Both the position numbers and the translations under genes were made by a program. From a bacterium (GTDB lineage: Bacteria > Patescibacteriota > UBA1384 > CAILIB01): DNA of 64,000 bases. Each line of letters opens with the position of its first letter. The stretch's first letter is position 1. Positions 37,526-58,616 of the stretch are shown here, in pieces. A model generated the notes under the pieces. That model made no database searches. It was not told where the DNA came from and saw only the letters and a list, made by a program, of their open reading frames with translations. The stretch spans positions 560,589 through 624,588 of the forward strand of contig JBAXRQ010000001.1 of assembly GCA_037131105.1 (NCBI GenBank). The letters run 5' to 3'.

Positions 37526-38467
37526 TCAGGACCGATACTGTCGATACCATTCAACAGTCTGTCGTACTCCCTCGGTAAAGTCGACCTGAGGGCTCCAATC
37601 CAGGTTAGAAGCCGCTTTCTCCACTGAAAGGCTCACTGCCATCAACTCACCAGGTCGAAGCGGCTCATATCGTGCCTCTAGGACATACCCTGTTGCCCCG
37701 CTAAGGGTGCGAAATACCTCGTTGGTAGAAGTGCCACGGCCGGTTCCAATATTAAAGGCCTCCCCGTCTCCCTCTCTCAGGGCAGCCGTATTAGCAGCTG
37801 CTACGTCACTGACGAATATATAGTCCCTGAGGGGAGTACCGTCACCAAACACTGTAACCGGCTGACTGTGCAGCATGCGCTCGGTAAAAATAGCGCAAAC
37901 GCCTACCTCACCATGCGGGTCTTGACGAGGACCATAGACATTGCCATATCGCAAAACAGTAGCCCTAAGCCCATATATGTCAGCATACAACCAAACATAA
38001 CGCTCTGCTGTGTATTTAGAAAGACCGTAAGGTGAAGTAGGTGAGGCCGGAGTGTCCTCAAGGGTGGGAAGAGTCTCGGCGACGCCGTACATAGTGCCAC
38101 CGCTCGCCGAATAGATGACCTTGGACTGAGGCGACTCAGTACGAACTGCTTCCAGGATATTTACCGTACCCAGCACATTCAGTGTCAGGTCATCGAGAGG
38201 TCGCATGGAGGATATAGCTACTGAGACTTGGGCGGCATGATGGCTGACCACATCGGGCCGAACCTGAGTCATCACCGACTTGAGAAAGTCTAGGTCACGT
38301 ATGTCTCCTTCTCGAACTGTCAGGCCGACTCGTCCCTCGTTTCCCAGGTTCTCCCGCTTTCCGGTAGAAAAGTCATCGATTACCGTCACCTCATGACCAG
38401 CTTTCAGATAAGCATCCACCACATGTGAACCAATAAATCCAGCTCCTCCAGTAACTACGATCTTCAT
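37526..38467 (-). CDS. NAD-dependent epimerase/dehydratase (UDP-sugar 4-epimerase/decarboxylase family); start set at MKIVVTGGAGFIGSH
   Basis: Rossmann GGAGFIGS and YSASKY-type catalytic motif (YGLSKY). Confidence 0.8.
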   Translation of the reverse strand: MKIVVTGGAGFIGSHVVDAYLKAGHEVTVIDDFSTGKRENLGNEGRVGLTVREGDIRDLDFLKSVMTQVRPDVVSHHAAQVSVAISSMRPLDDLTLNVLGTVNILEAVRTESPQSKVIYSASGGTMYGVAETLPTLEDTPASPTSPYGLSKYTAERYVWLYADIYGLRATVLRYGNVYGPRQDPHGEVGVCAIFTERMLHSQPVTVFGDGTPLRDYIFVSDVAAANTAALREGDGEAFNIGTGRGTSTNEVFRTLSGATGYVLEARYEPLRPGELMAVSLSVEKAASNLDWSPQVDFTEGVRQTVEWYRQYRS

Positions 38468-38477
38468 ATAGTGTAAG

Positions 38478-39872
38478 TTAGAGTGGGTAGACCTGGCCGA
38501 CACCCTCACTGTCGCGCACGGCATAGCCGGCTTTTTCAATCTCAAGGCGAAGCTGGTCGGCTACCTCCCACTCTCTAGCTGTCCGAGCCACATCCCGCTG
38601 TTGGGCTAACTCCCTGACGTTCTCTGGTACAGTCATGCTGGGCGCTTCATACGTACCACCCAGGCCCAGGGACAGAATCGGCTCAAACGACTCAACCACC
38701 ATCCTCTTCCCAGCAGGTTCAAGGTCGGACTGAAATGCTTCCCAGATCACCGCCATAAGCTGTGAGGTGTTAAGGTCGTCGGCAAGGGCGGCACTCCCAC
38801 GCTCAATCAGACTCTCCACATCTGGGCCGGTAGCGCCTTTTTCAGGAAGATCTGCCGTTAGCCGTCTCAGACGTTCTAAACTCTTCTGGGCAGCCTCAAT
38901 AGCCTCCCAGGTGAAGTTAAGCTTGCTTCGATAGCCGGCCGAATAAGTGAAGATACGAAAAGCCAACGGGTCTATCTTTCTTTCTACCAGATCAGCAACG
39001 GTGTAAAAGTTTCCCAGTGACTTACTCATCTTGCCACCGTCAACTAGGAGAAAGTCAGTATGTAGCCATTCCTTGGCCAATGGCTTTCCAGTAAGCGACT
39101 CGCTCTGAGCAATCTCATTGACGTGGTGGACCGGTATATGGTCGGTGCCGCCGCAATGAATGTCGATCTCATCCCCCAGTTGGTCGCGGATAATGGCCGA
39201 GCATTCGATATGCCAACCTGGAAATCCGGTGCCCCAAGGACTCTCCCACTCCATATCGCGTTTTCCGGGCGGCCTTGAGAACTTCCACAGAGCAAAGTCA
39301 GTCACTCTTCGTTTTCCCTCTGCCATCTCGACTCGGGCTCCTGCTTGCAAGCCTTCTAGATCAAGCCTGGCAAGTCGGCCATAATCAGAGACCTTTGAGC
39401 TATCAAAGTAGACACCGTCCTCAATAGTATAGGTGAGCCCTTTCTCTTCCAGCCCCTTGATAAAGGCGACCTGCTGAGTAATGGTGTCAGTGGCTCTGAT
39501 CAGGCGAGTGGGACGCTCTATATGTAGCTGGTCAAGGTCGGCTAGAAAAATTCCCTCATAGCGTTTGGCCACGTCCCAGGCAGTAAGTCCTTCGCGACGT
39601 GCCCCGACCTCCATCTTGTCCTCCCCTTCGTCCTCATCTGAAGTAAGATGCCCCACGTCAGTGATGTTCATCACCCGATCAACCTCGTAGCCAAAAAAGC
39701 GCAAGGTCTTTACCAATACGTCCTCATAGATATAGGTCCGGTAATTTCCAACGTGTTGGTTATTGTACACCGTCGGTCCACAGGTGTAGATGGCGACCCG
39801 ATCTCCAGTAAGTGGTACGAGCGGCTCCACCGAGCGACTCATCGTGTTATAGAGAGAGATAGGCCGCGCCAT
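38478..39872 (-). CDS. cysS: Cysteinyl-tRNA synthetase; HIGH motif reads HVGN, KMSKS intact
   Basis: CGPTVYN..HVGN..., zinc-ligand positions, KMSKSLGN; 464 aa. Confidence 0.9.
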   Translation of the reverse strand: MARPISLYNTMSRSVEPLVPLTGDRVAIYTCGPTVYNNQHVGNYRTYIYEDVLVKTLRFFGYEVDRVMNITDVGHLTSDEDEGEDKMEVGARREGLTAWDVAKRYEGIFLADLDQLHIERPTRLIRATDTITQQVAFIKGLEEKGLTYTIEDGVYFDSSKVSDYGRLARLDLEGLQAGARVEMAEGKRRVTDFALWKFSRPPGKRDMEWESPWGTGFPGWHIECSAIIRDQLGDEIDIHCGGTDHIPVHHVNEIAQSESLTGKPLAKEWLHTDFLLVDGGKMSKSLGNFYTVADLVERKIDPLAFRIFTYSAGYRSKLNFTWEAIEAAQKSLERLRRLTADLPEKGATGPDVESLIERGSAALADDLNTSQLMAVIWEAFQSDLEPAGKRMVVESFEPILSLGLGGTYEAPSMTVPENVRELAQQRDVARTAREWEVADQLRLEIEKAGYAVRDSEGVGQVYPL

Positions 39873-39874
39873 AT

Positions 39875-40141
39875 CTAAATACTACCTGGGTCGAACAGAT
39901 CGTCAGGCTCCAGGTCCTTCTCAATGAGTTGACTGGGCAACATCTTCACCTTGGCTGGCTCTTCCTCAATGATCACCTTCTTTATCTCGCGCTCGATCTC
40001 AGGATCAAGCTCAGGCGTGGCCGGAGTATGGGAAGACTCATCATGCTCCTCGGCGGGGCCCGTCTCCTCAGGGTCTACGTCCAGGGGCATGATCTGCTCA
40101 TCCAGCTGCTCGTCATGCTCGTCGTTCGCTACATCACTCAT
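39875..40141 (-). CDS. Hypothetical small highly acidic protein (88 aa)
   Basis: ORF between recR and cysS with D/E-rich composition; no motif. Confidence 0.4.
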   Translation of the reverse strand: MSDVANDEHDEQLDEQIMPLDVDPEETGPAEEHDESSHTPATPELDPEIEREIKKVIIEEEPAKVKMLPSQLIEKDLEPDDLFDPGSI

Positions 40142-40162
40142 ATGCGGTATATCAGGAAAGGC

Positions 40163-40801
40163 TTATAAAGTTGGCCCCATGCTTTTTCGTCCCTCCATCG
40201 CCCTCTGAAGAGTAGTAGGATCTGCGTACTCCAAATCACTTCCCATAGGCAGCCCGCGGGCGATGCGGGTTACTACTACTGTTCCATCTTCGACGAGCGA
40301 CTGCAAGAGCTGACCGATATACATTGATGTGGCCTCCCCTTCCAAAGAAGGATTCGTGGCAAGGATTACCTCGAGTTTGTGTCCCTCGGATACAGCTAAG
40401 CGTATACGCGTCTCAAGAAGCCCCACCCTTAGCTGGTCAGGACCGATGCCGTCGATAGGTGAAAGCGCTCCACCGAGGACATGGTAGAGGCCATGGAAAC
40501 TACCGGTTCTCTCAAGAGCGATTACATCCAAGGGACCCTCCACTACACAAATGAGGTCAGGGTTGCGCTGACCGTCCTGGCAGACGCTACAGAGATCATG
40601 CTCGGAGATATTTCCACACTGCTTGCAGTCCTGCAGACCGTGCCGAATCCCGTCTAGGGCATCAACGAAGCGTGCCACATCATAGTCCGACTTCTGCAGA
40701 AGATGAAAGGTGAGGCGTGAGGCCATCTTTGATCCTATCCCTGGCAACCGGCCGAAGGTATCGATCAGATTCTGGACTGAAGTCGGGAGCTTTGCGGACA
40801 T
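40163..40801 (-). CDS. recR: Recombination protein RecR
   Basis: HhH motif (LPGIGSKMASRL), C4 zinc finger (CKQCGNISEHDLCSVC), Toprim domain. Confidence 0.9.
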   Translation of the reverse strand: MSAKLPTSVQNLIDTFGRLPGIGSKMASRLTFHLLQKSDYDVARFVDALDGIRHGLQDCKQCGNISEHDLCSVCQDGQRNPDLICVVEGPLDVIALERTGSFHGLYHVLGGALSPIDGIGPDQLRVGLLETRIRLAVSEGHKLEVILATNPSLEGEATSMYIGQLLQSLVEDGTVVVTRIARGLPMGSDLEYADPTTLQRAMEGRKSMGPTL

Positions 40802-40834
40802 GAAAATAGTATACTAGAGCCCATCTCGTAATTA

Positions 40835-42892
40835 CTAGGCTTCCTCAGCGGCAGCTACCGGCGGCGGAAGTTCGGCAAAAGCAGCGAGGGACTGCTCCTT
40901 GAAGGGAAGGACGGTGCCCTCAGCCTCAAGATCCTCAATCTTCTTAGGTAGCTGTTCTTTCTTCCAGACTGCTACCTTGCAATCAGGGTACCCACTACAA
41001 CCGTAGAACATACCACGACGAGCCCGCTTCTCAGTCAGAGCCTTACCACAAAGGGGGCAGATAAGTCCGCTTGGCTCGGCTACACTCAGTGGCAGTGTGG
41101 TCTTGCAGTCTGGAAATTTGGTACAGGCCAGGAACTTACCGAAGCGTCCACGCTTTACTAGCATCTCCGATCCACAAGTAGGACACACCACATCGCTCTT
41201 TTCGGTGGTGTCGACCTTCTCAATCTTGTCCACTTCGGTCTCCACCTGGGCATGGAAAGGTTTCCAGAATTCGGAAAGCACATCGGCATAAGCAGCTTCG
41301 CCGTCAGCAACACTATCAAGCTTCTCTTCCATGCTGGCCGTAAAGGTGACATCCACAATGTCAGGGAAGTGCTTTACCAGCATATCAGTGACCAGGAAAC
41401 CAACTTCCTGTGGTGCCAGGCGACGCTGCTCTGAAAGCACATATCCGCGTTGCATAAGGGTGTCGATAGTGGGGGCGTACGTGGAAGGCCGGCCAATCCC
41501 CTGCTCTTCCAGGGCCTTGATGAGAGATGCTTCCGTATAACGTGGAGGCGGCTCAGTGAAATGCTGTTCAGGCTGCAGTTCCTTTAGATCGACAGCTTGT
41601 CCAGGAGTAAGGGCTGGCAAGATATTTTCATCTTTGTCATCTTTCTCCATTACCGCCATAAATCCGGGAAAGACAATACGCTGACCAGTGGCTCGGAATA
41701 CCGCCTTGCCTGCTTCGATAATCGCCACCGTCTGCTCAAGCTCAGCATCAGTCATCTGACTGGCTAAGGCGCGGCGACGAATCAGGTCATACACCTTCTG
41801 GGTTGCCGGCTCCCCTCCGATATCAGCACCGGTGCGAGTAGGATCGGTAGGACGGATGGCTTCGTGGGCCTCCTGGGCGTTCTTGGACTTCGCCTGGTAT
41901 GTATTAGGCTTGACAGGAAGATATTTGGCACCATACTCATCCTTTATATGGCCCCGTATAGCCTCCAGAGCCGTCTCTGAAAGTGCTACCGAGTCAGTAC
42001 GCATATAGGTGATGTCACCCGCCTCGTAGAGGCGCTGGGCAATCTGCATCACCCGCTTGGCGGAAAGGCCAAGCTTGTTTACCCCATCCTGCTGGAAGCT
42101 GGAGGTAGTATAGGGAGCAGCGGGCTTGCGCTTGGTCGGCTTGCTTTCAACTGAGACTACTGTATAGGTAGCCTTTTCCAAGGACTTCACTATGGTGTCC
42201 ACTTCAGCAGCAGCAGACAAGGTCATCTTCTCAATCTTCTTGCCATCATATACAGAAAGGCCGGCAGTAAACTCAGCCTTCTGTTTAGGCTCATTGAGCA
42301 AAGCCTTTAAGCTCCAATACTCTTCAGGCTTAAAAGCCAGGCGCTCTCGCTCACGATCCACGATGATACGGAGGGCAACAGACTGCACGCGTCCAGCAGA
42401 AAGACCCTTATAGAGCTTCTTCCAAAGCACGGGTGAGAGCGTATACCCAACCAGGCGATCCAGAACGCGCCGGGCCTGCTGGGCGTCAATAAGCTGGAGA
42501 TTCAAAACGCCCGGATGCTCTATGGCCTTCAGAATGGCAGGCTTAGTGATCTCATCAAAGGTGATGCGGGAAACCTTTATGTCCTGCTTCTCCAGGTCAA
42601 GAGCCTGACTGATATGCCATGCAATTGCCTCACCTTCGCGGTCCAAGTCTGTCGCCAGAAAAACGCTCGTCTTACCCTTAAGAGCTTCTTTCAACGCCTT
42701 AAGCGTCTTGCGTGCCTTGGGGGGAATGACATAGCTAGGCACGAAGTTGTCCTCAACATCTACTCCCAGCTTGGAAGCAGGTAGATCGCGAACATGACCC
42801 ATGCTGGCAACGACCTTGTAGTCGGAGCCAAGGTATTTCTCAATTGTACCCGCTTTGGCGGGAGACTCGACGATTACAAGATGCTTTGCCAT
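40835..42892 (-). CDS. topA: DNA topoisomerase I with C-terminal zinc ribbons
   Basis: Toprim (IVESPAKA), catalytic Tyr region (TYMRTDS), C-terminal CPTCG/CPLCG zinc fingers. Confidence 0.9.
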   Translation of the reverse strand: MAKHLVIVESPAKAGTIEKYLGSDYKVVASMGHVRDLPASKLGVDVEDNFVPSYVIPPKARKTLKALKEALKGKTSVFLATDLDREGEAIAWHISQALDLEKQDIKVSRITFDEITKPAILKAIEHPGVLNLQLIDAQQARRVLDRLVGYTLSPVLWKKLYKGLSAGRVQSVALRIIVDRERERLAFKPEEYWSLKALLNEPKQKAEFTAGLSVYDGKKIEKMTLSAAAEVDTIVKSLEKATYTVVSVESKPTKRKPAAPYTTSSFQQDGVNKLGLSAKRVMQIAQRLYEAGDITYMRTDSVALSETALEAIRGHIKDEYGAKYLPVKPNTYQAKSKNAQEAHEAIRPTDPTRTGADIGGEPATQKVYDLIRRRALASQMTDAELEQTVAIIEAGKAVFRATGQRIVFPGFMAVMEKDDKDENILPALTPGQAVDLKELQPEQHFTEPPPRYTEASLIKALEEQGIGRPSTYAPTIDTLMQRGYVLSEQRRLAPQEVGFLVTDMLVKHFPDIVDVTFTASMEEKLDSVADGEAAYADVLSEFWKPFHAQVETEVDKIEKVDTTEKSDVVCPTCGSEMLVKRGRFGKFLACTKFPDCKTTLPLSVAEPSGLICPLCGKALTEKRARRGMFYGCSGYPDCKVAVWKKEQLPKKIEDLEAEGTVLPFKEQSLAAFAELPPPVAAAEEA

Positions 42893-43743
42893 TGGGTGCC
42901 GTTACAGTAGATATATCCGTCCAGTTCCAATACGGAAAGGACGCTGCGCAGTTCGGAGATACTGAGTCCGCTGCGCGCGGAGAGCAGGTTGGCTTCGTTA
43001 CAGCCATGCGAGATCAAATCATACAGAGTTGCAGGCGTACCTGTCAAGGCTGGCTGGAGTCGCAACGGTGTAACCGTGGGCAGTGCCTTGGTATAAAGCT
43101 CCAGAATGTCCTCAACCGATCCTACCGGATGGGCTCCCTGCTTCAATAGACTGAGAATTCCCCGGCTTTGCTCCCGGGTGACATCTCCAGGAACTACACA
43201 GACCTCTCGTCCCGCCTCAAGGGCAAACCGGGCGGTAATGAGGGTGCCCGATTGTTCGCCCGCCTCTATTATAAGGGTCACGGGGCTTAGTGCCGCAACT
43301 ATCCGATTTCGAGCCGGAAAATGATAGCTCTGGGGACCGGTTCCCAGCGGGTATTCACTGAAAGCGCAGCCGCCTGACTCCAGGATCTTACCATACAAGC
43401 CGACATTGCGCTGAGGATACGGTCGGTCAAGGCCGCTCCCCAGTACTACCACACACTTCCCCTCGTTCTGAAGAGCCACCGAATGGGCGTACCCGTCCAC
43501 ACCATATGCCAGGCCAGAGACAATGACCAGCCCGCTACGCACGAGCCCTGGGACCAACTGACGCACCATCCGCTCCCCATAGTCACTCACCCGTCGACTA
43601 CCGATGATACTTATCGAAGGCAGTTCGCATAGTGTAACTTCGCCAGATGCGTAGAGGAGCTTAGGATGCCCCTTGCTTTCCCGTAACAGCACCGGATATC
43701 TCTCGTTTTCAGAGTTAAGGGTATATACGGGGGGATAGAGCAT
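42874..43743 (-). CDS. dprA: DNA processing protein DprA (Smf)
   Basis: Rossmann-like DprA core (IIGSRRVSDYG...VSGLAYGVD), 289 aa; overlaps the topA start. Confidence 0.85.
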   Translation of the reverse strand: MLYPPVYTLNSENERYPVLLRESKGHPKLLYASGEVTLCELPSISIIGSRRVSDYGERMVRQLVPGLVRSGLVIVSGLAYGVDGYAHSVALQNEGKCVVVLGSGLDRPYPQRNVGLYGKILESGGCAFSEYPLGTGPQSYHFPARNRIVAALSPVTLIIEAGEQSGTLITARFALEAGREVCVVPGDVTREQSRGILSLLKQGAHPVGSVEDILELYTKALPTVTPLRLQPALTGTPATLYDLISHGCNEANLLSARSGLSISELRSVLSVLELDGYIYCNGTQWQSIL

Positions 43744-43784
43744 ATATCCGGTATATCCCCTGCCACTCCCATGGGCAACCTAGT

Positions 43785-45713
43785 TTACTCTTCAGAAGAA
43801 TGAAATAGCGGAATATGCAGCCTGCGAGCCTGTCTTCCGATCTCTTCCTGTAACAACTGGCTATACAGCAGCAGCCCTATCGACTCCATGTTGCCGTGCT
43901 GCTCATGACCCAGGATATTGCCACCACCGCGTATCTCAAGGTCCCGCAAGGCAATAGACCAGCCGCTACCCAAGGTATCTGCCTCCATAAGTGCCTCAAG
44001 CCTTCTACGGGCGTTCTCTGTAGTCGTAAGCACCTCAGGTTGCAGCTCATAGCCGGCCCTCTCTACCCCGCCCACCATAAAGTAAGCAAAAGCCTGGGTA
44101 CGGCGGCGGCCTACCCGTCCGCGCAGCTGATACAGGTCGGAAAGGCCGAACCACTCGCTATGGAGTACAACGAGCGTATTGGCACTCGGACTATCTAGTC
44201 CGTATTCAACGATGCTTGAAGCCACCAGCACATCGATTTCACCCGCCAAAAACAGGCTCATCGCCTCAGCCAGGGCGTTTTCCCCCATCTGGCCGTGGGC
44301 CATGCAGATCACTACCTCCCCTTTTGACTTAGTACTGGCCCGGGCGCCGTCGGCAAAGTACGTAGACTTCAATCCCCCGGCAGTAAGGATAGTAGATACA
44401 CGCTCTAACACGAGCGGCAATGACTGTACCCGATTGTGAACCACATAGGTCTGGCCGCCACGTTTGATTTCCGCCAGCATGGCCTTTCCCAACACTTTGT
44501 CCTGGTAGGGACCCACCTCAGTCGTGACCGGGAGGCGGCCCTGGGGAGGCGTACGAAGTATGCTGAGGCTTCTTAGACCCGAAAGACTCATCGAAAGCGT
44601 ACGGGGAATTGGCGTGGCTGACAGCGAAAGCACGTCGATACTTGGGCGAAGCTCCTTAAGACGCTCCTTTTGTCCGACGCCGAACTTCTGCTCCTCATCC
44701 AGGATAAGCAGACCAAGGTCCTTGAACTGGACGTCCTTCCCCAGCAGTCTATGAGTGCCGATGACTAAATCCACACTACCATCAGCAAGCCCAGGCAATA
44801 CCGCCTGGTTTTTAGTCCCCGTGAGTCGTGAGATATGCCCCACCTTCACTGGCAGATCTGCGAATCGCTTTTCCAGAACCACGTAATGCTGCTCAGCCAG
44901 GACCGTAGTAGGTGCGACAAGGGCCACCTGCTTGCCCGAGGCTATGACCTGGGCGGCCGCTCTCAGAGCCAGCTCGGTCTTACCAAAACCGACATCGCCG
45001 CAGATAAGCCTGTCCATAGGAAGCCTTCTGGCAAAATCCTTTTGCATTTCATCCCACGCCCGGGCCTGGTCTTCGGTCAGGTCAAAATCCACTTGGCTTT
45101 CTAGCACGTTCTGCCACTCTTCTGCATGGGGAAACGGTTCACGCTCAGTCAGCTGACGCTGGGCATAGATCTGTAAGAGCTGGCGGGCTATGGCAATCAG
45201 ATCCTTCTGGATACGCTCCTTCGTACGTAGCCAAGCCTTAGAGTACAGCCTGGTCAGTCGTGGGTGCCGACTACCAATATATGGCATCAGTTCCTTATAG
45301 CGATCGTAGGGAAACAGCAGCCGGTCGTTACCAGCGTACTGTAGGGAAACAAAGCGTTTTTCTCCCTCCGCAGACATACGTGTCTCTATCCGTTCAAAAA
45401 TACCTACTCCGTGGAACGGATGAACTACATATTCGCCGGGCCTAATCGTGCCATGCTCGGTCTCAATCTCATTAGCAACAACTTCGGGGGTAAGCTCAGT
45501 AAGATTCCAGTCACCCTCCTCACCTCGCTCCATCTTTTCTAGATCGGCGTCAAAGAAATGAAACCGATATGCCTTCGAAGCAGACACCGGCCACCAGCTG
45601 ACCGTATCTCCGCGCACTACGAAATCACCGGATTGGTGTATCCGGTCTACCTCCTGATATGAGTGCTTCCTTAGAAAAAGCAGTAACTCCGTGTACGATA
45701 GCATCCGGGCCAT
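43785..45713 (-). CDS. mfd: Short Mfd-like transcription-repair coupling factor (CarD/RNAP-interacting domain plus RecG-like helicase; lacks the N-terminal UvrB-homology D1-D2 domains)
   Basis: GEYVVHPFHGVGIF (CarD_TRCF RID), helicase motifs GDVGFGKTE, DEEQKFG, SATPIPRT; 642 aa versus ~1150 for canonical Mfd. Confidence 0.75.
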   Translation of the reverse strand: MARMLSYTELLLFLRKHSYQEVDRIHQSGDFVVRGDTVSWWPVSASKAYRFHFFDADLEKMERGEEGDWNLTELTPEVVANEIETEHGTIRPGEYVVHPFHGVGIFERIETRMSAEGEKRFVSLQYAGNDRLLFPYDRYKELMPYIGSRHPRLTRLYSKAWLRTKERIQKDLIAIARQLLQIYAQRQLTEREPFPHAEEWQNVLESQVDFDLTEDQARAWDEMQKDFARRLPMDRLICGDVGFGKTELALRAAAQVIASGKQVALVAPTTVLAEQHYVVLEKRFADLPVKVGHISRLTGTKNQAVLPGLADGSVDLVIGTHRLLGKDVQFKDLGLLILDEEQKFGVGQKERLKELRPSIDVLSLSATPIPRTLSMSLSGLRSLSILRTPPQGRLPVTTEVGPYQDKVLGKAMLAEIKRGGQTYVVHNRVQSLPLVLERVSTILTAGGLKSTYFADGARASTKSKGEVVICMAHGQMGENALAEAMSLFLAGEIDVLVASSIVEYGLDSPSANTLVVLHSEWFGLSDLYQLRGRVGRRRTQAFAYFMVGGVERAGYELQPEVLTTTENARRRLEALMEADTLGSGWSIALRDLEIRGGGNILGHEQHGNMESIGLLLYSQLLQEEIGRQARRLHIPLFHSSEE

Positions 45714-45806
45714 AGTAGCATTAGATGGTCTTTCCTGAAAGTAGTAAGGGATATTTCCAATTGTATGAATACAGATTAATACTTCATATATATGATTAAA
45801 TATGAG

Positions 45807-45835
45807 TTGACAAGAAAAGTTGGCTATGGTAGTAT
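45807..45835 (+). promoter_or_regulatory. Sigma70 promoter TTGACA-17-TAGTAT on the plus strand, in an otherwise minus-strand region
   Basis: Consensus -35, good -10, AT-rich upstream region. Confidence 0.55.
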
Positions 45836-45841
45836 CAGATC

Positions 45842-45985
45842 ATATTTGAGCGACCAGGTTGTCTATCTATCTACGCAGCCAACGATCTTTGCCCCTCCTT
45901 TGGATCGGGCCCGCAAGGGCCGGCACGTAGATAGATACATCACCTGGTCCAAGCACAAAAACACCGCCTTCAAGCGGTGTTTTTA
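45842..45985 (+). ncRNA. Candidate ~145-nt small RNA: outer 8+13-bp stem enclosing a hairpin with a 15-nt C-rich loop (UUUGCCCCUCCUUUG) and a GCAA-tetraloop hairpin, ending in an intrinsic terminator
   Basis: Transcript bounded by the promoter at 45807-45835 and the terminator at 45957-45985; 64-codon ORF has no SD and unusual composition. Confidence 0.4.
45957..45985. terminator. Bidirectional intrinsic terminator (aaaaa-acaccgcc-ttcaa-ggcggtgt-ttttt) serving the small RNA candidate (plus) and the rplK transcript (minus)
   Basis: 8-bp GC stem flanked by A5 and T5. Confidence 0.7.
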
Positions 45986-46136
45986 GTTGCAAGCGGTAAA
46001 CGTGTCCGGTACAGATCCCGTAAACGTTTTCAGGGAGATGAATTTTGAGGAAGAAGTGAGTATTCGACCGAGGCGTACTGACGTACGTCGAGGAAGAAAC
46101 GGAGCTTCTGACAAAGAAATTCGCTCGCTGAAACGT

Positions 46137-46568
46137 TTACTTTTCGACGTCGACGCCCATGGATCGAGCAGTTCCCGCAATTATCTTAGCCGCCTCCTCA
46201 GGAGTACGTGCGCTAAGGTCCGACATCTTGATCTCAACGATCTTGGCCATCTGGTCCTTGGTAAGGGTACCGATCTTGGTCTTCTTTGGATTGGCGGAAC
46301 CTACCTTGATACCGAGTGCCTGCTTAATTAGTACGGCTGCAGGTGGCTGCTTCAGGATGAAACTGAAGGTACGGTCCTCGTAGATGGTAATTTCGCAAGG
46401 AATGATGGTATCGCCCTTGTCCTTGGTAGCCTCATTGAACTGCTTACAGAAGTCCATGATGTTAATACCTTGAGGACCGAGAACAGTACCTACTGGAGGT
46501 GCAGGCTGTGCCTTACCGGCTGGACACTGCAGCTTGATGATAGTCTTGATTGGCTTTTGAGTGGCCAT
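46137..46568 (-). CDS. rplK: 50S ribosomal protein L11
   Basis: Canonical L11 sequence (KLQCPAGKAQPAPPVGTVLGPQGINIMDFCKQFN...). Confidence 0.92.
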   Translation of the reverse strand: MATQKPIKTIIKLQCPAGKAQPAPPVGTVLGPQGINIMDFCKQFNEATKDKGDTIIPCEITIYEDRTFSFILKQPPAAVLIKQALGIKVGSANPKKTKIGTLTKDQMAKIVEIKMSDLSARTPEEAAKIIAGTARSMGVDVEK

Positions 46569-46571
46569 GGC

Positions 46572-47180
46572 TTAAACCTGAGTTAATTGTAGGTAGTCGA
46601 GTGTGACAGGGGTCTCGCGTCCAAACATAGAGACGAGAACCTTTACCTTGCCCTTCTCGACGTCGATGGAGTCAACCTTGGCCTGGAAGCCCTTCAGAGC
46701 GCCATCGGTGATCTGGACCAGGTCACCGTTCTTGTACTCGATCTTGTACTTAGGCTCCTCGATCTGCATACGGCGGCGAATGGACTCAACCTCAGTGGGA
46801 GACATCGGGGTGGGACGAACTCCGAAACCGATGAAGCCGGTGACGTTCGGGGTATTACGAACGACGAACCACGACTCTTCAGTCACCATCATGTCTACCA
46901 TGACGTAGCCAGGGAAGATCTTCTTCTCGACGGTGCGACGCTTGCCGTTTTTGATTTCAATCTGCTTTTCAACCGGTACCAGCACATCGAAGATCATGTC
47001 ACCCATGTTCAGAGACTCAATACGCTGATGCAGGTTCTGAGCTACCTGATCCTCATATCCGGAGTAGGTGTGGATAACATACCAGTTACGCTCACCGGAC
47101 TGTTTGCCGGTTGTGCGACCAGAAAGACGAGAAACCGTCTCTTCCTGGGCCTGTGGTGACTGCTGCTGTTCGCTCGACAT
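46572..47180 (-). CDS. nusG: Transcription termination/antitermination factor NusG (with ~30-aa N-terminal extension)
   Basis: NGN domain (WYVIHTYSGYE) and KOW domain (GDLVQITDGALKGF). Confidence 0.9.
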   Translation of the reverse strand: MSSEQQQSPQAQEETVSRLSGRTTGKQSGERNWYVIHTYSGYEDQVAQNLHQRIESLNMGDMIFDVLVPVEKQIEIKNGKRRTVEKKIFPGYVMVDMMVTEESWFVVRNTPNVTGFIGFGVRPTPMSPTEVESIRRRMQIEEPKYKIEYKNGDLVQITDGALKGFQAKVDSIDVEKGKVKVLVSMFGRETPVTLDYLQLTQV

Positions 47181-47189
47181 AGAGGCCGG

Positions 47190-47387
47190 TTATTTGTTGA
47201 CGATAAAACCGAGGCCGTGAATGAACACATAGTCCACACCGGCTACAAAAGCAGTGAAGACGACCAGTCCGACCACGACACTCACAAAGTGCTGAAGGAG
47301 CACCGGAAAAGTGGGCCAGACTACTTTACGTAGCTCAGCCTGTACTCCGCGGAAATAGGTGGTCAGCCAGGCTAGTGCCTTTTTCAT
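47190..47387 (-). CDS. secE: Preprotein translocase subunit SecE
   Basis: 65 aa, single C-terminal transmembrane helix, upstream of nusG. Confidence 0.8.
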   Translation of the reverse strand: MKKALAWLTTYFRGVQAELRKVVWPTFPVLLQHFVSVVVGLVVFTAFVAGVDYVFIHGLGFIVNK

Positions 47388-47388
47388 A

Positions 47389-47760
47389 CTAGACGGTCTT
47401 TGCGGTTGCCTTCTTTGGTGCAGCGGCCTTAGGAGCCTTCGTAGCAGAGGTGGAGATAGTAGTAATCTTTACCTGTGTCAGCTGCTGACGGTGACCGAGA
47501 GTGCGACGCTGACGCTTCTTAGGCTTGTACGTCACTACCCTGATCTTTGGTCCCTTGCGCTGGGCAAGAACCTGGGCCACGACAGTAGCCCCCTCGATAA
47601 GAGGGGCTCCAACGATAGGATCTCCATCCTCCTGAACAAGAAGAACCTTGTCAAAGGTGATGTTGTCGCCCTCGTTTCCTTCCAGCTTTTCAACTGAAAT
47701 AACGCTGCCGGAACTTACTCGATATTGTTTGCCACCCGTTTCAATTACCGCGAAGGACAT
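47389..47760 (-). CDS. rplU: 50S ribosomal protein L21 (with Lys/Ala-rich C-terminal tail)
   Basis: MSFAVIETGGKQYRVSSG...KPKKRQRRTLGHRQQLTQVKI matches L21. Confidence 0.8.
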   Translation of the reverse strand: MSFAVIETGGKQYRVSSGSVISVEKLEGNEGDNITFDKVLLVQEDGDPIVGAPLIEGATVVAQVLAQRKGPKIRVVTYKPKKRQRRTLGHRQQLTQVKITTISTSATKAPKAAAPKKATAKTV

Positions 47761-47838
47761 GCCGATTCGTTAGAGTCTGATAGGATTGCGCTGGACAATT
47801 AAAAAAATCCCTAGTGCACTTACTGTACCAGATTAGCC

Positions 47839-48960
47839 TTAGAAGGTCAACCGCTTATACCGAATCACTACTGACTGGACAATTCCCAGGGCCAGCATAT
47901 TGGTGAAAAGAGTGGTGCCGCCGTAACTGAGTAGCGGCAACGGGATACCAGTAACTGGCATTAGACGGATGTTCATCCCAACGTTTACGAGCACCTCGAT
48001 CAGTACCTTGGCAAGCACCCCGATACAGATAAGCATGCCAAAATCATCCTTGGCAATGCGGGCGGCCTGCAGAACCCTATAGAGTAGAAAGAAGTATATT
48101 CCTAGTATCGCCCAGGTTCCCACCAGTCCCCAGGCCTCGGCAATACCAGCAAAAATGAAGTCAGCATATACAACAGGCAAGAAGTTCAGCTCTGACTGAC
48201 TCCCATAGCCTAGTCCTTTTCCGGTCACACCTCCCGAGCCAACCGCGATAACCGACTCCTGCACGTTGTAGCCGGTCTTCAAAGGGTCTCGCGAAGGATC
48301 GATAAAACTGGCCAGCCGGTCCTTCTGGTATTCCTTCAGAATCTTAGAGAAAGGAGCCACTTCTTTAAATGATAACGAGACCACTGTAATCACTAGTACT
48401 AGTCCCGTGATAATCGTAACCAGCTGCCATCTCCTGAGCCGGGCATGCAGAAGTATTACCGTCCCAGTGAATGCTACGACAATAGCGGTACCGAGGTCGG
48501 GCTGAAGCATGATGGCTACAACCGGAAGAAGTATAGCCCCGACTACCATGGCAAAACGTCGGCCCGATACCGCCATACGCGCCCGGCTCAGTAGCGCAGC
48601 CACTACGATGATGATGACCAGCTTCTCTATCTCAGCAGGCTGAAGCTGGAAAAATCCCAGATTGATCCAACGCTGGGCACCGAAGTCACTCTTTCCTATT
48701 GCTGGGATGCGGACCAGTACCAGGCCAATGAGACCGGCCAAATAGATCCAGTTCGCCCAGCTGCGCAAACCACGATAGTCTATAAACGTAGCTGCCAGCA
48801 TAAGGACCACTCCGATAACCCCAAACACGGCCTGATGCTCGTACAGCCCAGGACCACTGGAATCAACAGTAAGGGTGTAGATGAAGACAACGCTTATGGC
48901 CAACAGGATCAACGGCAGCAAATAGAGCCAGGGATCGAAGGTCTTAAAGCGATTCCACAT
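47839..48960 (-). CDS. ftsW: SEDS-family peptidoglycan glycosyltransferase (FtsW/RodA)
   Basis: 10 transmembrane segment pattern and conserved SEDS blocks. Confidence 0.8.
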   Translation of the reverse strand: MWNRFKTFDPWLYLLPLILLAISVVFIYTLTVDSSGPGLYEHQAVFGVIGVVLMLAATFIDYRGLRSWANWIYLAGLIGLVLVRIPAIGKSDFGAQRWINLGFFQLQPAEIEKLVIIIVVAALLSRARMAVSGRRFAMVVGAILLPVVAIMLQPDLGTAIVVAFTGTVILLHARLRRWQLVTIITGLVLVITVVSLSFKEVAPFSKILKEYQKDRLASFIDPSRDPLKTGYNVQESVIAVGSGGVTGKGLGYGSQSELNFLPVVYADFIFAGIAEAWGLVGTWAILGIYFFLLYRVLQAARIAKDDFGMLICIGVLAKVLIEVLVNVGMNIRLMPVTGIPLPLLSYGGTTLFTNMLALGIVQSVVIRYKRLTF

Positions 48961-51818
48961 TAGGACGAGATAAGGTCTATATAGACACTCTCACCACCTA
49001 CTTGTGTCTCCACCGCATCAGTAGGGCGCCAACTATTCTCATCAAGACGTAAGAACGTGTCCGACAGAATATCGGCACGTAGCAACGGTTCCACGAGGTG
49101 CCTACCTGAAGGATCGACCACTAACAGCACCTCCTGACCTGGCTGTAGTCCTCGCTCCTTACGGAGTTGCTGGACGGTGCGCTGGAAGTCACGGGCCAGA
49201 CCGGCTTGTACCAGCTCATCTGTGAGTACAAAGTCCAACTCTACCGAAACGGCCGTTTCAGTGGTCTCGGCTTGGACCTTCAGTACATTCAGCTCTTCAC
49301 CCAGGATAGTAAGCAACTCCTGACGTACAGGGCGCAAGAAGTAAGCAGTCGCCTTGGCTAGGGGCTGGCGAACCTTGACCTTTTCAGACGCCCGGAGAGA
49401 TAGGCCTAGCTCAACGGCGGAACGTACCTCAAGCATTTCCTCATCCAGCTTCTCATCTCTTCCCGACAGCTCTCCTGGCCACTCTTCAAGATGGACCGAC
49501 TGGGGCTGTGAGTCGTGGCGCAGAGTCTGGTAAATCTGCTCACTGAGGAATGGAGTCAGCGGCGCCAGCATCACCGACAGATTCATGAGCACGTCATGAA
49601 GTATTGCGAAGAACGCCTGGTCATCCCGCTTACGGGAACGACGCAGATACCAGGTGGAAAGATCTCCCATATAACCTTCCAAGGTGCGCCCGGCCCGCAT
49701 AAAGTCGTAGGCCTCCATATGAGCGGTCACCTCAGCGCTAATCCGAGACTGCTGAGAAAGTATCCACTGGTCAAGGGCATTCTCCTGATTCTGGCGAGAA
49801 GCCTCGCGGTCCTCGGGGCTGGGTGCCTCAAAGTCGGCCAGATTGGCGTAGGTAACAAAGTAATTGAAGACGTTCCAGTAGAGCATCAGACCGCGACGGA
49901 AGGCTGTCTGAATCTCTTTGTGGCTCATGGCCTTCGACTCGCCTGGAGAGTTGACGGTGAGCAGAAACCAACGGATGGCATCGGCCCCGTGTTTAGCAAA
50001 CATCTCCCAGGGATCAAAGACATTACCCAATGACTTGGACATTTTCTTGCCGTCCTCGTCGACCAGGTGGCCCATGCACATCACCCTCTGGTAGGCGGTA
50101 CCGCGACCAGTAGCCGTACTAATGGCCTGCATGGTATAGAACCATCCCCTTGTCTGGTCCACTGCCTCAGCAATGTAGTCAGCTAGGAACTCACCGGCAG
50201 CCTCACGTCCGGAAGCATAGGGCATGGCCCCTGAGTCGAACCAGACATCGAGCACGAAGGGCTCATGGAAATACTCTTCCCCGTCCTTGACCAGCACTAT
50301 CTCATCCACTGAGGGACGATGCGGGTCAAACTCCTCCCCTACTTGAGAAGGGTCCTTGGCAAGCGATCTGAGCTCCTCAAAGGAACCGACACAGAGACTC
50401 TTTCCTGAAGCAGCCACCCAGATCGGCACCGGACTTCCCCAGAAGCGCTCTCGCGAGACCGCCCAGTCACGGGCCTCCTTAATGAACTCACCGAACCTAC
50501 CGTCCCGGATATGCTCTGGAAACCACTCTACCTGGGAGTTATTGGCTACCAGCTCACCTCTCAGCTTGGACATGGCAATGTACCAGGAATCTTTGGCGTA
50601 ATACAGTAATGCAGTCTTACAGCGCCAGCAGTGCGGATAGCTATGGGTGATGGTCTGCTTGGCGTAGAGCTTCCCCTTGCCGGCCAGGTCCTTGATGATG
50701 TCGATGATGGCATCCTTGGCGTAGCTTCCGGCAAACTCCTTCACATTTGGTAGGAAGTGGCCGTCGGGACCCACCGTATGCATCAGGGCCAAGCCCTCGT
50801 CCTTGGCCATGGTGAAGTCGTCCTCCCCGTACATGGGGGCCTCATGGGCGATACCGGTTCCGTCGGTCGATGTGACAAAATCAGCATGTACCACCACGAA
50901 CTTCCTACCCTCAGCATCAGCCAGAGGCTCTGGATAAAGTGGCTCATAGGAATTCCCTATAAGCTCAGAGCCCTTGAACTCATCAACGATGACATAGTCG
51001 CCCTTGAGTACCTCGAGGCGTTCCTTGGCGACAACGTATTCACGACCTTCCTGGGACACTGCCACATAGTCAATATCCTTACCGACAGCTAGTGCGGTAT
51101 TACCAGGTAGCGTCCATGGGGTGGTGGTCCAAGCCAGTACTAAACGGTTCGGATTGTCTATAAGGGGGAAGGAGACAAAGACCGAGATATCCTTGACGTC
51201 CTGATATTCCATGGCCACTTCGGCAGCAGATAGTCCGGTGCCGCAGCGCGGACAGTAAGGCAGCACTTTGTAACCCTTGTAGACTAGGTCACGGTCCCAG
51301 ATCTGCTTGAAGGTCTCCCAGACCTTTTCCACATACTTCGGCTCATAAGTGATGTAGGGATTCTCAGTGTCCACCCAGTAGCCAGTACGAGGTACGAACT
51401 TGTCCCACTCCTGCTTGAACTCCCAGACGCTGGTCCGGCAGGCATCGTTAAACTGACGCATAGAAGCCGCCTCGTCCCCAGGGACCAGGTTCAATACCTC
51501 CTTTTTCCCAGCCAAACCTAACTTCTTCTCTATTTGTACTTCTACAGGAAGGCCATGTGTATCCCAGCCGGCCTGGCGGCGCACATAGTCACCGCGCATG
51601 GTCCGGTAGCGGCCGACCACATCCTTAAAGGTCATGGGGACCATAGTATGCAGGGGCGGCTTGGCATTGGCTGTGGGCGGCCCGTCGTAGATCACATAAG
51701 GGGTCTTGCCGGCGTTACGCTCGACACTCTTTTGAAATATCTTTTCAGACTGCCAGAAGGAGAGAACCTCCTCTTCCTGGCCCGGAAAGTCAGGCTGGGG
51801 AGCAACAGGTTTGAACAT
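48960..51818 (-). CDS. ileS: Isoleucyl-tRNA synthetase, type 2 (eukaryote/Thermus-like); HIGH position reads PLHT, KMSKS intact
   Basis: YDGPPTAN...RTMRG...GWDTHGLPVE alignment to type 2 IleRS; YCPRCGTGL editing/zinc region; KMSKSLGN. Confidence 0.9.
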   Translation of the reverse strand: MFKPVAPQPDFPGQEEEVLSFWQSEKIFQKSVERNAGKTPYVIYDGPPTANAKPPLHTMVPMTFKDVVGRYRTMRGDYVRRQAGWDTHGLPVEVQIEKKLGLAGKKEVLNLVPGDEAASMRQFNDACRTSVWEFKQEWDKFVPRTGYWVDTENPYITYEPKYVEKVWETFKQIWDRDLVYKGYKVLPYCPRCGTGLSAAEVAMEYQDVKDISVFVSFPLIDNPNRLVLAWTTTPWTLPGNTALAVGKDIDYVAVSQEGREYVVAKERLEVLKGDYVIVDEFKGSELIGNSYEPLYPEPLADAEGRKFVVVHADFVTSTDGTGIAHEAPMYGEDDFTMAKDEGLALMHTVGPDGHFLPNVKEFAGSYAKDAIIDIIKDLAGKGKLYAKQTITHSYPHCWRCKTALLYYAKDSWYIAMSKLRGELVANNSQVEWFPEHIRDGRFGEFIKEARDWAVSRERFWGSPVPIWVAASGKSLCVGSFEELRSLAKDPSQVGEEFDPHRPSVDEIVLVKDGEEYFHEPFVLDVWFDSGAMPYASGREAAGEFLADYIAEAVDQTRGWFYTMQAISTATGRGTAYQRVMCMGHLVDEDGKKMSKSLGNVFDPWEMFAKHGADAIRWFLLTVNSPGESKAMSHKEIQTAFRRGLMLYWNVFNYFVTYANLADFEAPSPEDREASRQNQENALDQWILSQQSRISAEVTAHMEAYDFMRAGRTLEGYMGDLSTWYLRRSRKRDDQAFFAILHDVLMNLSVMLAPLTPFLSEQIYQTLRHDSQPQSVHLEEWPGELSGRDEKLDEEMLEVRSAVELGLSLRASEKVKVRQPLAKATAYFLRPVRQELLTILGEELNVLKVQAETTETAVSVELDFVLTDELVQAGLARDFQRTVQQLRKERGLQPGQEVLLVVDPSGRHLVEPLLRADILSDTFLRLDENSWRPTDAVETQVGGESVYIDLISS

Positions 51819-57851: not shown

Positions 57852-57874
57852 ACCTCGTAAGTATACGCTATACT
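57845..57874 (+). promoter_or_regulatory. Promoter TTGTCA-18-TATACT placing the TSS on the ATG at 57881 (leaderless ABC transporter mRNA)
   Basis: -10 ends 7 nt before the ATG; no SD. Confidence 0.45.
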
Positions 57875-57880
57875 CGACTC

Positions 57881-58612: not shown

Positions 58613-58616
58613 CCCT

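What the first reader, a model, noticed from the sequence alone, without database searches (positions are those of the whole stretch)
38478..51818. Both class I aminoacyl-tRNA synthetases in the window have degenerate HIGH motifs
CysRS reads CGPTVYNNQ-HVGN-YRT where the canonical sequence is C-HIGH-GRT. The type 2 IleRS reads DGPPTANAKP-PLHT-MVP where Thermus has PPTANGLP-HVGH-AQ. KMSKS is intact in both. The second His of HIGH contacts the ATP phosphates and is almost invariant. Two independent enzymes deviating in one genome suggests a lineage-specific change in ATP binding. The alternatives are relaxed constraint, or that these genes are not the sole functional copies.
Basis: partly seen in the sequence, partly recalled or inferred. 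Interest (0 to 1): 0.5.

Follow-up and report, generated by a model that had tools for sequence, protein, structure and literature searches.

The report
Non-canonical HIGH motifs in two synthetases
Both tRNA synthetases really lack the textbook HIGH motif, but each carries a conserved, family-wide substitute (CysRS HxGN, as in the Borrelia crystal structure; IleRS a new PLHT version of the known "swapped" GxHH motif), so they look like working housekeeping enzymes, not decayed ones.

Summary
CysRS (38478-39872, -) reads HVGN and the type 2 IleRS (48960-51818, -) reads PLHT where HxGH is expected. No register shift restores HxGH, and KMSKS is intact in both.

The shared-cause interpretation does not hold. 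CysRS HxGN is the norm for a whole subfamily: 116 of its 120 best homologs have it, across several phyla, and so does the solved Borrelia burgdorferi CysRS (3SP1). That part is ordinary.

None of the 120 best IleRS homologs has HxGH. They carry G/AxHH, the "swapped" IleRS2 motif of Brkic et al. 2023, which is linked to mupirocin hyper-resistance. The nearest 25 carry PLH(T/S).

PLHT keeps the third-position His but has Pro at position 1 and Thr at position 4. It comes with Pro61 and loss of the otherwise near-invariant Arg62. Its codons vary synonymously among orthologs, and the gene sits in conserved housekeeping synteny. All other active-site motifs are invariant.

The ALHH and PLHT forms switched at least twice within this Patescibacteria lineage. 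A V(L/F)HT form arose separately in another clade. I found no published description.

Verdict: functional enzymes and two unrelated subfamily traits. The IleRS motif is a new variant of a known kind. Moderate interest.

The parts
48960..51818 (-). ileS, type 2 isoleucyl-tRNA synthetase, 952 aa
   Evidence: TIGR00392 scores 819 bits against a cut-off of 621. Best solved relatives are the IleRS2 structures 1ile and 8c8u-w at 714-732 bits, versus IleRS1 at 317-331 bits. The Foldseek best hit is 8c8w. The C-terminal PF19302 domain is present.
51645..51656 (-). IleRS signature motif P55-L56-H57-T58, in place of HxGH
   Evidence: Translation confirmed. It aligns to HVGH of 1ile and GVHH of 8c8w. P55, L56 and H57 are invariant and T58 is at least 90% conserved in 21 clade members. 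The codons vary synonymously among loci.
51633..51644 (-). M59-V60-P61-M62, following the motif on helix alpha1; P61 and M62 co-vary with the motif
   Evidence: Pro61 is present in 30/30 xxH[TS] sequences, versus 5/117 GxHH and 2/41 HxGH. Arg62 is present in 41/41 HxGH and 112/117 GxHH but only 1/30 xxH[TS], where it is Met (24) or Phe (4).
51390..51395 (-). V142-P143, clade-specific residues one helical turn after W138 (= PmIleRS2 W130)
   Evidence: They are two of only five positions that separate PLH(T/S) sequences from xxHH sequences. The W130 region is described as adjoining the HXGH motif (PMC10485003). That V142-P143 lie close to the motif in space is inferred, not measured.
50031..50045 (-). 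IleRS KMSKS loop (residues 592-596)
   Evidence: Translation confirmed. It is invariant in all 117 homologs compared.
38478..39872 (-). cysS, cysteinyl-tRNA synthetase of the HxGN subfamily, 464 aa
   Evidence: TIGR00435 scores 397 bits against a cut-off of 340. The best solved relative is 3sp1, Borrelia burgdorferi CysRS, at 328 bits.
39744..39755 (-). CysRS signature motif H40-V41-G42-N43
   Evidence: Translation confirmed. In an alignment of the 120 best homologs (the window's own protein included): HIGN 106, HVGN 6, HLGN 4, TxGN 2, HxGH 2 (one search agrees).
39018..39032 (-). CysRS KMSKS (residues 281-285)
   Evidence: Translation confirmed. The subfamily has KMSKS (56) or KMAKS (58) at this site.

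Best explanation
Both genes encode functional housekeeping synthetases. Each unusual signature motif is an inherited trait of that enzyme's subfamily and is under purifying selection. The two traits are unrelated to each other.

(1) CysRS belongs to a widespread subfamily in which the fourth motif residue is Asn (HxGN). The first His and the Gly are kept. The Asn side chain is inferred to supply the hydrogen bond to ATP that the fourth His normally gives.

(2) IleRS is a type 2 enzyme of the 'swapped-motif' class (G/AXHH; Brkic et al. 2023). In that class a His at position 3 takes the place of the catalytic first His. Here the motif has gone one step further, to P-L-H-T. His57 (position 3) is the only His left and is inferred to stabilise the transition state. 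Thr58 replaces the fourth His as a small polar hydrogen-bond partner. Pro55, Pro61, Met62 (replacing a near-invariant Arg) and V142/P143 are inferred to re-pack the N-terminus of helix alpha1. KMSKS and all other substrate-binding motifs are unchanged.

Because the third-position His is the residue held responsible for the clash with mupirocin, the enzyme is predicted to be mupirocin hyper-resistant.

Shown here: sequence, conservation, co-variation, synteny and phylogenetic distribution. Inferred: the roles of His57 and Thr58, the re-packing, and the resistance.
For: CysRS:
- 116 of the 120 best homologs have HxGN, from records named Patescibacteria, Parcubacteria, Casimicrobiaceae and Pseudomonadota.
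- The closest solved structure, 3SP1 (B. burgdorferi CysRS with AMP and Zn), reads HIGN.
- The zinc-ligand motifs CGPT, WH[ILV]EC and HHxNE are conserved.
- TIGR00435 is above its cut-off.

IleRS:
- None of the 120 best homologs has HxGH. Counts: GIHH 44, ALHH 33, PLHT 24, GLHH 12, GMHH 3, PLHS 1, GILH 1, and 2 not parsed by the first pattern, which an alignment resolves as ALHH and GVHH.
- G/AXHH is a published functional motif. Wild-type ALHH D. radiodurans IleRS2 has kcat 45 s-1 and Ki(mupirocin) 6.6 mM. In the GXHH crystal structures the third His N-epsilon-2 sits where the first His N-epsilon-2 sits in HXGH (PMC10485003).
- P55, L56 and H57 are invariant in 21 PLHT-clade sequences at 56-68% identity to the window protein.
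- The motif codons differ synonymously among five loci: CCC/CCG/CCT, CTG/CTC/TTG/CTT, CAT/CAC, ACT/ACC/ACG.
- PPTAN, GWDTHG, WFDSG, E..DQ.RGW, G.xxD and KMSKS are invariant in the PLHT group, as in its relatives.
- The gene order rsmH-rnhA-ileS-ftsW-rplU-secE-nusG-rplK-mfd-dprA-topA-recR-orf-cysS is the same in four PLHT loci and in the ALHH locus L085; the second ALHH locus, L086, shares it as far as dprA, where its contig ends.
- Co-variation: Pro61 30/30 and loss of Arg62 29/30 in xxH[TS].
- An independent V(L/F)HT..PF group has ALHHLEAR sequences as its nearest relatives.
- Asn, Ser or Thr at position 4 also occurs in other IleRS2 representatives (HxGN, HxGS, HYGT).

Independence of the two traits: CysRS stays HxGN whether the IleRS of the same contig is PLHT, ALHH or GLHH.
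Against: - No biochemical data exist for a PLHT IleRS or for any enzyme of this lineage.
- The AlphaFold model is uncertain exactly at the motif (pLDDT 58-65 for residues 41-60) and at the KMSKS loop (below 50). Coordinates could not be inspected, so the roles assigned to His57, Thr58 and Met62 are not structurally verified.
- Brkic et al. kept the fourth His in every construct. A fourth-position His-to-Gln change in S. aureus IleRS1 is reported only from laboratory strains and is thought to be costly, so losing it may lower activity.
- Only 64 kb of a roughly 0.95 Mb contig could be read, so a second ileS or cysS elsewhere in the genome is not excluded.
- The trees are neighbour-joining only.
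Confidence: 0.8

Rival explanations
1. A single lineage-specific change in how this organism's class I synthetases bind ATP (for example adaptation to a different nucleotide pool) altered both motifs together.
For: Both deviations touch the fourth motif position in one genome. Both enzymes come from a Patescibacteria-like genome with unusual biology.
Against: The CysRS state is not lineage-specific. HxGN is found in 116 of 120 homologs from several phyla and in Borrelia. Within the lineage, CysRS is HxGN regardless of whether IleRS is PLHT, ALHH or GLHH. The IleRS motif switched at least twice with no matching change in CysRS. The substitutions also differ in kind: a single His-to-Asn change in CysRS, versus a swapped motif plus Pro and Thr in IleRS.
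Confidence: 0.04
2. Relaxed constraint: the genes are decaying or have been recruited to a non-translational role, and the motifs are degenerate.
For: Two of the three defining residues of the published G/AXHH motif are missing in the IleRS. The model has low confidence around the motif.
Against: Both reading frames are full length. The family models pass their cut-offs. The motif residues are invariant across orthologs at 56-68% identity to the window protein, while their codons change synonymously. All other catalytic, zinc-binding and editing motifs are conserved. The operon context is a conserved housekeeping one. The xΦHT form evolved convergently, which implies selection.
Confidence: 0.03
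3. These are second copies (for example antibiotic-resistance paralogs), and canonical ileS and cysS genes elsewhere in the genome do the housekeeping work.
For: IleRS2 is known to occur as a second, resistance-conferring copy in some bacteria (PMC10485003). Only 64 kb of the genome could be read.
Against: The gene sits between rnhA and ftsW-rplU-secE-nusG-rplK, in the same place in every related genome examined. That indicates vertical inheritance. MupA and MupB models score about 650 bits against a cut-off of 1900. Contigs of 0.9-0.95 Mb suggest reduced genomes, where duplicate synthetases would be unusual (an inference). IleRS2 with a non-canonical motif is reported as a housekeeping enzyme elsewhere. 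To my knowledge, Borrelia relies on a HIGN CysRS as its only cysS.
Confidence: 0.08
4. Artefact: a sequencing or assembly error, or a misalignment, creates the apparent loss of HxGH.
For: None found.
Against: No register shift can restore the motif. Identical proteins are on record from three independent sources. 24 other protein clusters have the same IleRS motif and 115 have the same CysRS motif type.
Confidence: 0.01

Closest known systems
IleRS2 with the non-canonical G/AXHH signature motif (Brkic et al., Nat Commun 2023, PMC10485003; natural examples D. radiodurans ALHH and S. griseus; engineered PDB 8c8w)
   Same: A type 2 IleRS fold with the C-terminal domain of IleRS2. A His at the third motif position in place of the conserved Gly, and no His at the first position. 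KMSKS is intact. The nearest relatives outside the PLHT group carry ALHH or GxHH. The best structural match is 8c8w.
   Different: Position 1 is Pro, not Gly or Ala. Position 4 is Thr, not His, so a single His remains. The motif is accompanied by Pro61, by Met62 in place of a near-invariant Arg, and by V142/P143. This form is absent from the text and held supplements of that paper and from the searchable literature. Its activity and mupirocin Ki are unknown.
Borrelia burgdorferi CysRS, PDB 3SP1 (SSGCID; PMC5428304)
   Same: It is the best solved relative of the window CysRS (328 bits). It has the same CGPTVYNxxH(I/V)GN(F/Y)RTYI segment, the same insert TD(I/V)GHLT.D.D.GEDK, the same zinc ligands and KMSKS. 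It was crystallised with AMP and Zn in the active site.
   Different: Val instead of Ile at motif position 2, and a different phylum. The paper does not comment on the Asn.
TrpRS 'TIGN' signature, and the TyrRS His48Asn mutant (recalled from my own knowledge; not checked with the tools)
   Same: Class I enzymes that work with Asn at the fourth signature position. In TrpRS there is no His in the motif at all. This shows that a small polar residue can replace the fourth His.
   Different: These are different synthetase families. They serve only as precedent for the chemistry, not as relatives.
S. aureus IleRS1 laboratory mupirocin-resistant mutants with His-to-Gln at the fourth HIGH position (cited in PMC10485003)
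   Same: Loss of the fourth His in an IleRS, linked to mupirocin resistance.
   Different: They are type 1 enzymes, selected in the laboratory and thought to carry a fitness cost. They are not seen in clinical isolates. PLHT is natural, conserved and in a type 2 scaffold.

Membership tests
Isoleucyl-tRNA synthetase, type 2 (IleRS2) | Passes the curated IleRS family model | tested here: met
   TIGR00392 ileS scores 819.1 bits against a cut-off of 621.4.
Isoleucyl-tRNA synthetase, type 2 (IleRS2) | Closer in sequence and fold to IleRS2 than to IleRS1 | tested here: met
   1ile scores 732 bits and 8c8u-w score 714-719 bits, versus IleRS1 8c9f/1ffy at 317-331 bits. In Foldseek, 8c8w scores E 3.8e-79 and IleRS1 8c9e scores 2.1e-50.
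Isoleucyl-tRNA synthetase, type 2 (IleRS2) | Type 2 C-terminal domain (PF19302) rather than the zinc-binding C-terminus of IleRS1 | tested here: met
   PF19302 is on record for the identical protein P0001 and for the gene in L081.
Isoleucyl-tRNA synthetase, type 2 (IleRS2) | KMSKS loop and the substrate-binding motifs PPTAN, GWDTHG, WFDSG and E..DQ.RGW | tested here: met
   All are present in the window protein and invariant in the clade.
IleRS2 non-canonical G/AXHH motif class (Brkic 2023) | His at the third motif position | tested here: met
   H57 aligns with the third-position His of GVHH in 8c8w and is invariant in the clade.
IleRS2 non-canonical G/AXHH motif class (Brkic 2023) | Gly or Ala at the first motif position | tested here: not met
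   Pro55, invariant in 21 clade members.
IleRS2 non-canonical G/AXHH motif class (Brkic 2023) | His at the fourth motif position | tested here: not met
   Thr58 (Ser in P0040). By contrast, His is present in 93/93 xxHH homologs.
IleRS2 non-canonical G/AXHH motif class (Brkic 2023) | Millimolar Ki for mupirocin with near-normal catalysis | not testable with these tools
   This needs enzyme kinetics. It is predicted only because the third-position His is kept.
Mobile mupirocin-resistance IleRS (MupA / MupB) | Passes the NCBIfam exception models NF000257 / NF000258 | tested here: not met
   657 and 645 bits against cut-offs of 1900.
Cysteinyl-tRNA synthetase | Passes the curated CysRS model | tested here: met
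   TIGR00435 cysS scores 396.7 bits against a cut-off of 340. MshC scores 212 against 485, so it is not MshC. The narrower equivalogs NF011108 (447 against 780) and NF011107 (344 against 744) are not reached.
Cysteinyl-tRNA synthetase | Zinc-ligand residues and KMSKS | tested here: met
   CGPT (C31), GWHIEC, HHVNE and KMSKS are present and conserved in 120 homologs. They align with the solved CysRS structures.
Cysteinyl-tRNA synthetase | Canonical HIGH (H-x-G-H) | tested here: not met
   HVGN. This is also true of 116 of the 120 homologs and of PDB 3SP1.
HxGN-type CysRS subfamily (Borrelia 3SP1-like) | H-Φ-G-N motif plus the insert TDVGHL..D.D.GEDK | tested here: met
   HVGN, and TDVGHLTSDEDEGEDK at residues 71-86. 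The same features are in 3sp1 and in the homologs.

The most novel reading that the evidence does not exclude
[P/V]-Φ-H-[T/S], together with Pro at +3 and Met/Phe replacing the conserved Arg at +4, is a third, discrete catalytic solution for the class I signature motif in IleRS2. It has a single His at position 3. It evolved convergently in at least two Patescibacteria clades, and within one lineage it switches back and forth with ALHH as a tightly coupled package with no intermediates seen. That pattern would point to strong epistasis, and to fluctuating selection on the ATP/inhibitor pocket, for example by natural IleRS inhibitors or by ATP supply in episymbiotic cells.
Probability: 0.3. Interest if true: 0.55.

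Novelty: new variant of a known kind. Interest (0 to 1): 0.35.

Why it matters
The HIGH motif is one of the two defining signatures of class I synthetases and is used in annotation and in drug design. In 2023 IleRS2 was shown to tolerate a swap of positions 1 and 3 and to gain about 1000-fold mupirocin resistance from it.

The PLHT/VΦHT forms found here show that nature has gone further. One His at position 3 appears to be enough, provided the neighbouring helix residues change with it. The form has arisen more than once.

If confirmed biochemically, this would narrow down which contacts of the signature motif are really needed for adenylate formation. It would also widen the set of IleRS expected to be insensitive to mupirocin-like inhibitors. 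For genome annotation, the practical message is that a missing HxGH in CysRS or IleRS2 of candidate-phyla bacteria is not evidence of a pseudogene.

Tried and rejected
It returned only relatives at 43% identity or less and none from the clade. As a result there is no species-level taxonomy and no whole-genome check for second copies.
- Cluster look-up gave no name better than 'bacterium' or 'Patescibacteria group'.
- Structure modelling gave a good overall model (mean pLDDT 83.7, IleRS2 fold). No statement about ATP-pocket geometry could be derived from it.
- Literature searches for HIGN/HVGN with CysRS and for PLHT with IleRS found nothing relevant. The review on mupirocin hyper-resistance is not in the library.
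- The fragment search returned only short partial proteins. It was nonetheless useful, because it revealed the V(L/F)HT group.
- Rfam found nothing in the window.
- I first expected the PLHT sequences to form one clade. They do not.

Full report
**What is in the sequence**

The two genes are as described. cysS is at window 38478-39872 (-) and encodes 464 aa. Its protein reads IYTCGPTVYNNQ-HVGN-YRTYI and has GGKMSKSLGN further on. ileS is at 48960-51818 (-) and encodes 952 aa. Its protein reads VIYDGPPTANAKP-PLHT-MVPMTFKD and has GKKMSKSLGN further on.

NCBIfam calls them cysteine--tRNA ligase (TIGR00435, 397 bits against a cut-off of 340) and isoleucine--tRNA ligase (TIGR00392, 819 against 621). 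The IleRS is type 2. It scores 714-732 bits against Thermus IleRS (1ile) and P. megaterium IleRS2 (8c8u-w), but only 317-331 bits against IleRS1 structures. It also carries the PF19302 C-terminal domain.

HMMER aligns PLHT column for column on HVGH of 1ile and on GVHH of 8c8w. It aligns HVGN on HIGN of 3sp1. The IleRS contains no H-x-G-[HN] anywhere, and there is no Gly between G46 and G69, so a register shift cannot restore the motif.

No other synthetase was found among the ten largest remaining ORFs of the window.

**CysRS is ordinary for its subfamily**

In an alignment of its 120 best-scoring homologs (90% identity clusters, the window's own protein included), 106 have HIGN, 6 HVGN, 4 HLGN and 2 T(I/V)GN. 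Only 2 have HxGH (one search agrees). The named records include Patescibacteria, Parcubacteria, Casimicrobiaceae and Pseudomonadota.

The closest solved structure is 3SP1, the CysRS of Borrelia burgdorferi crystallised with AMP and zinc (PMC5428304). It reads CGPTVYNYA-HIGN-FRTYI. The subfamily also shares the insert TDVGHL(T/V)SDxDxGEDK, the zinc-ligand motifs CGPT, WH(I/L/V)EC and HHxNE, and either KMSKS or KMAKS.

Asn at the fourth signature position is therefore the normal state of this kind of CysRS. From my own knowledge (not checked here), TrpRS uses TIGN, and a TyrRS His48Asn mutant keeps its activity. That fits an Asn side chain replacing the hydrogen bond of the fourth His.

**IleRS belongs to the known swapped-motif class but goes beyond it**

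None of the 120 best IleRS homologs has HxGH. The counts are GIHH 44, ALHH 33, PLHT 24, GLHH 12, GMHH 3, PLHS 1 and GILH 1, plus 2 that the first pattern did not parse and that an alignment resolves as ALHH and GVHH.

Brkic et al. (Nat Commun 2023, PMC10485003) described G/AXHH as a natural non-canonical motif of IleRS2:
- The His at position 3 places its N-epsilon-2 where the first His of HXGH sits.
- Catalysis is only mildly affected. Wild-type ALHH Deinococcus IleRS2 has kcat 45 s-1.
- Ki for mupirocin rises about 1000-fold, into the millimolar range.
- IleRS1 cannot accept the swap.

The Foldseek best match of an AlphaFold model of the window protein is 8c8w, their hyper-resistant GVHH mutant.

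PLHT keeps the third-position His but fails two of the three defining positions of G/AXHH: Pro at position 1 instead of Gly or Ala, and Thr at position 4 instead of His. I found no mention of PLHT in that paper, in its held supplements, or in the searchable literature.

**PLHT is selected, not degenerate**

- In 21 clade members that are 56-68% identical to the window protein, P54, P55, L56, H57 and P61 are invariant. T58 and M62 are at least 90% conserved.
- Across five genomes the four codons differ synonymously while the residues stay the same: CCC/CCG/CCT, CTG/CTC/TTG/CTT, CAT/CAC and ACT/ACC/ACG.
- All other synthetic-site motifs are invariant in the PLHT group, just as in xxHH relatives: PPTAN, GWDTHG, WFDSG, E..DQ.RGW, G.xxD and KMSKS. 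The zinc-binding and editing motifs CPRC, CWRC, TTTPWT and GTGxxH are conserved too.
- The gene order is the same in the window, in four other PLHT loci and in the ALHH locus L085; the second ALHH locus, L086, shares it as far as dprA, where its contig ends. The order is: type IV pilus genes, rsmH, rnhA, ileS, ftsW, rplU, secE, nusG, rplK, mfd-like, dprA, topA, recR, a small ORF, cysS. This is a vertically inherited housekeeping context, not that of an acquired second copy.
- The MupA and MupB models are far below their cut-offs.

**Co-variation and evolutionary pattern**

Only five positions separate PLH(T/S) sequences from xxHH sequences: 55, 58, 62, 142 and 143.

In a larger set of N-terminal fragments:

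| Motif class | Pro61 | Arg62 |
|---|---|---|
| xxH[TS] | 30/30 | 1/30 (Met 24, Phe 4) |
| AxHH | 27/48 | 21/48 |
| GxHH | 5/117 | 112/117 |
| HxGH | 2/41 | 41/41 |

Residues 58 and 62 are i and i+4 on helix alpha1, which spans residues 56-74 in the model. Residues 142 and 143 lie one turn after W138, the equivalent of PmIleRS2 W130, which Brkic et al. place next to the motif. That these residues touch each other is inferred, not measured.

A second group (P0401, labelled 'Candidatus Paceibacterota', with P0410, P0474 and P0482) has V(L/F)HT followed by M-x-P-F. Outside their own group, their nearest relatives are ALHHLEAR and GIHH sequences (72-78% identity over the N-terminal fragment, motif region masked). 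They are 55-59% identical to the window clade over the same fragment. The single-His form therefore arose independently.

Within the window's lineage the two forms interleave:
- With the motif columns masked, PLHT is monophyletic in 0 of 100 neighbour-joining bootstraps of IleRS.
- A tree of six concatenated neighbouring proteins (1809 columns) pairs an ALHH genome (L086) with a PLHT genome (L087) in 200 of 200 bootstraps.
- The same tree keeps the window with L082 and L083 in 190 of 200 bootstraps. This requires at least two switches.

No mixed states (PLHH, ALHT) were seen among about 390 IleRS2 sequences inspected. Thr to His needs two nucleotide changes. This package-like toggling is unexplained.

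More broadly, Asn, Ser or Thr at position 4 occurs in other IleRS2 representatives (HxGN, HxGS, HYGT).

**The two deviations are independent**

CysRS proteins paired with IleRS proteins by shared longest-contig length (an inference), or found together on the fetched loci, are HxGN whether the IleRS is PLHT, ALHH or GLHH. HxGN CysRS also extends to phyla far outside this lineage. A common lineage-specific change in ATP binding is not supported. Relaxed constraint and sequencing error are contradicted. A hidden canonical copy is unlikely but could not be excluded, because only 64 kb of a roughly 0.95 Mb contig was readable and the one genome-collection scan returned only distant relatives.

**Mechanism proposed**

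Shown: motif identity, conservation, co-variation, synteny and distribution.

Inferred:
- His57 acts as the transition-state-stabilising His, as the third-position His does in GXHH enzymes.
- Thr58 in IleRS, and Asn43 in CysRS, give the hydrogen bond normally supplied by the fourth His.
- Pro55, Pro61, Met62, V142 and P143 re-pack the start of helix alpha1 once the His4/Arg62 pair is gone.
- The KMSKS lysines carry the main charge stabilisation.
- The retained third-position His predicts mupirocin hyper-resistance.

The AlphaFold model is too uncertain at residues 41-60 (pLDDT 58-65) and 583-600 (below 50) to test any of this.

**Verdict**

The CysRS half of the finding is already known in databases and in a crystal structure. 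The IleRS half is a new variant of a recently described kind of motif, with an interesting convergent and toggling evolutionary pattern. There is no evidence of loss of function. Interest is moderate (0.35).

Noticed in passing
window 39875-40141 (-): An 88-aa, very acidic ORF lies between recR and cysS, with no Pfam hit on record. An ORF of 87-110 aa occupies the same slot in six of the seven fetched loci (L081-L085, L087); L086 ends before that point.
   Followed up: partly
window 14145-24240 (-): A TrwB/VirD4-like coupling ATPase (14145-17072) is followed by two very large ORFs of 871 aa (17655-20270) and 1172 aa (20722-24240). Neither large ORF has a Pfam family at E <= 1e-5.
   Followed up: no
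window 53263-63976; also L081-L087 upstream of rsmH: A type IV pilus-like cluster (PilC/T2SSF, A24 prepilin peptidase, several N-methyl pilins, an ABC transporter pair) is conserved next to rsmH-rnhA-ileS in all related genomes.
   Followed up: partly
window 48960: The ileS stop and the ftsW/rodA start share one base (a 1-nt overlap). The same arrangement is in L082, which suggests translational coupling.
   Followed up: no
window 43785-45713 (-): The Mfd-like gene is only 642 aa (UvrB_inter, CarD_TRCF_RID, DEAD and Helicase_C domains). As far as I recall, that is much shorter than canonical Mfd. The short form is conserved in relatives at 622-641 aa.
   Followed up: no
window 1-64000: No Rfam family reaches its gathering score anywhere in the 64 kb, so the window has no tRNA, rRNA or riboswitch.
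   Followed up: no
CysRS homologs P0146, P0148; alignment of P0121-P0240: Two CysRS homologs have TIGN/TVGN, with no His in the motif at all (TrpRS-like). About half of the HxGN CysRS carry KMAKS instead of KMSKS.
   Followed up: partly
IleRS homologs P0120, P0271: P0120 reads GILH, with Leu at the otherwise invariant third-position His. It is a single sequence and possibly an error. P0271 reads TIHH, the only case of a non-Gly/Ala first position together with a fourth His.
   Followed up: no
window 37526-38545 (-): The NAD-dependent epimerase ORF as listed starts at TTG and overlaps the 3' end of cysS by 68 nt. The internal ATG (MKIVVTGGAGFIGS...) is the likely true start, which removes the overlap.
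   Followed up: no
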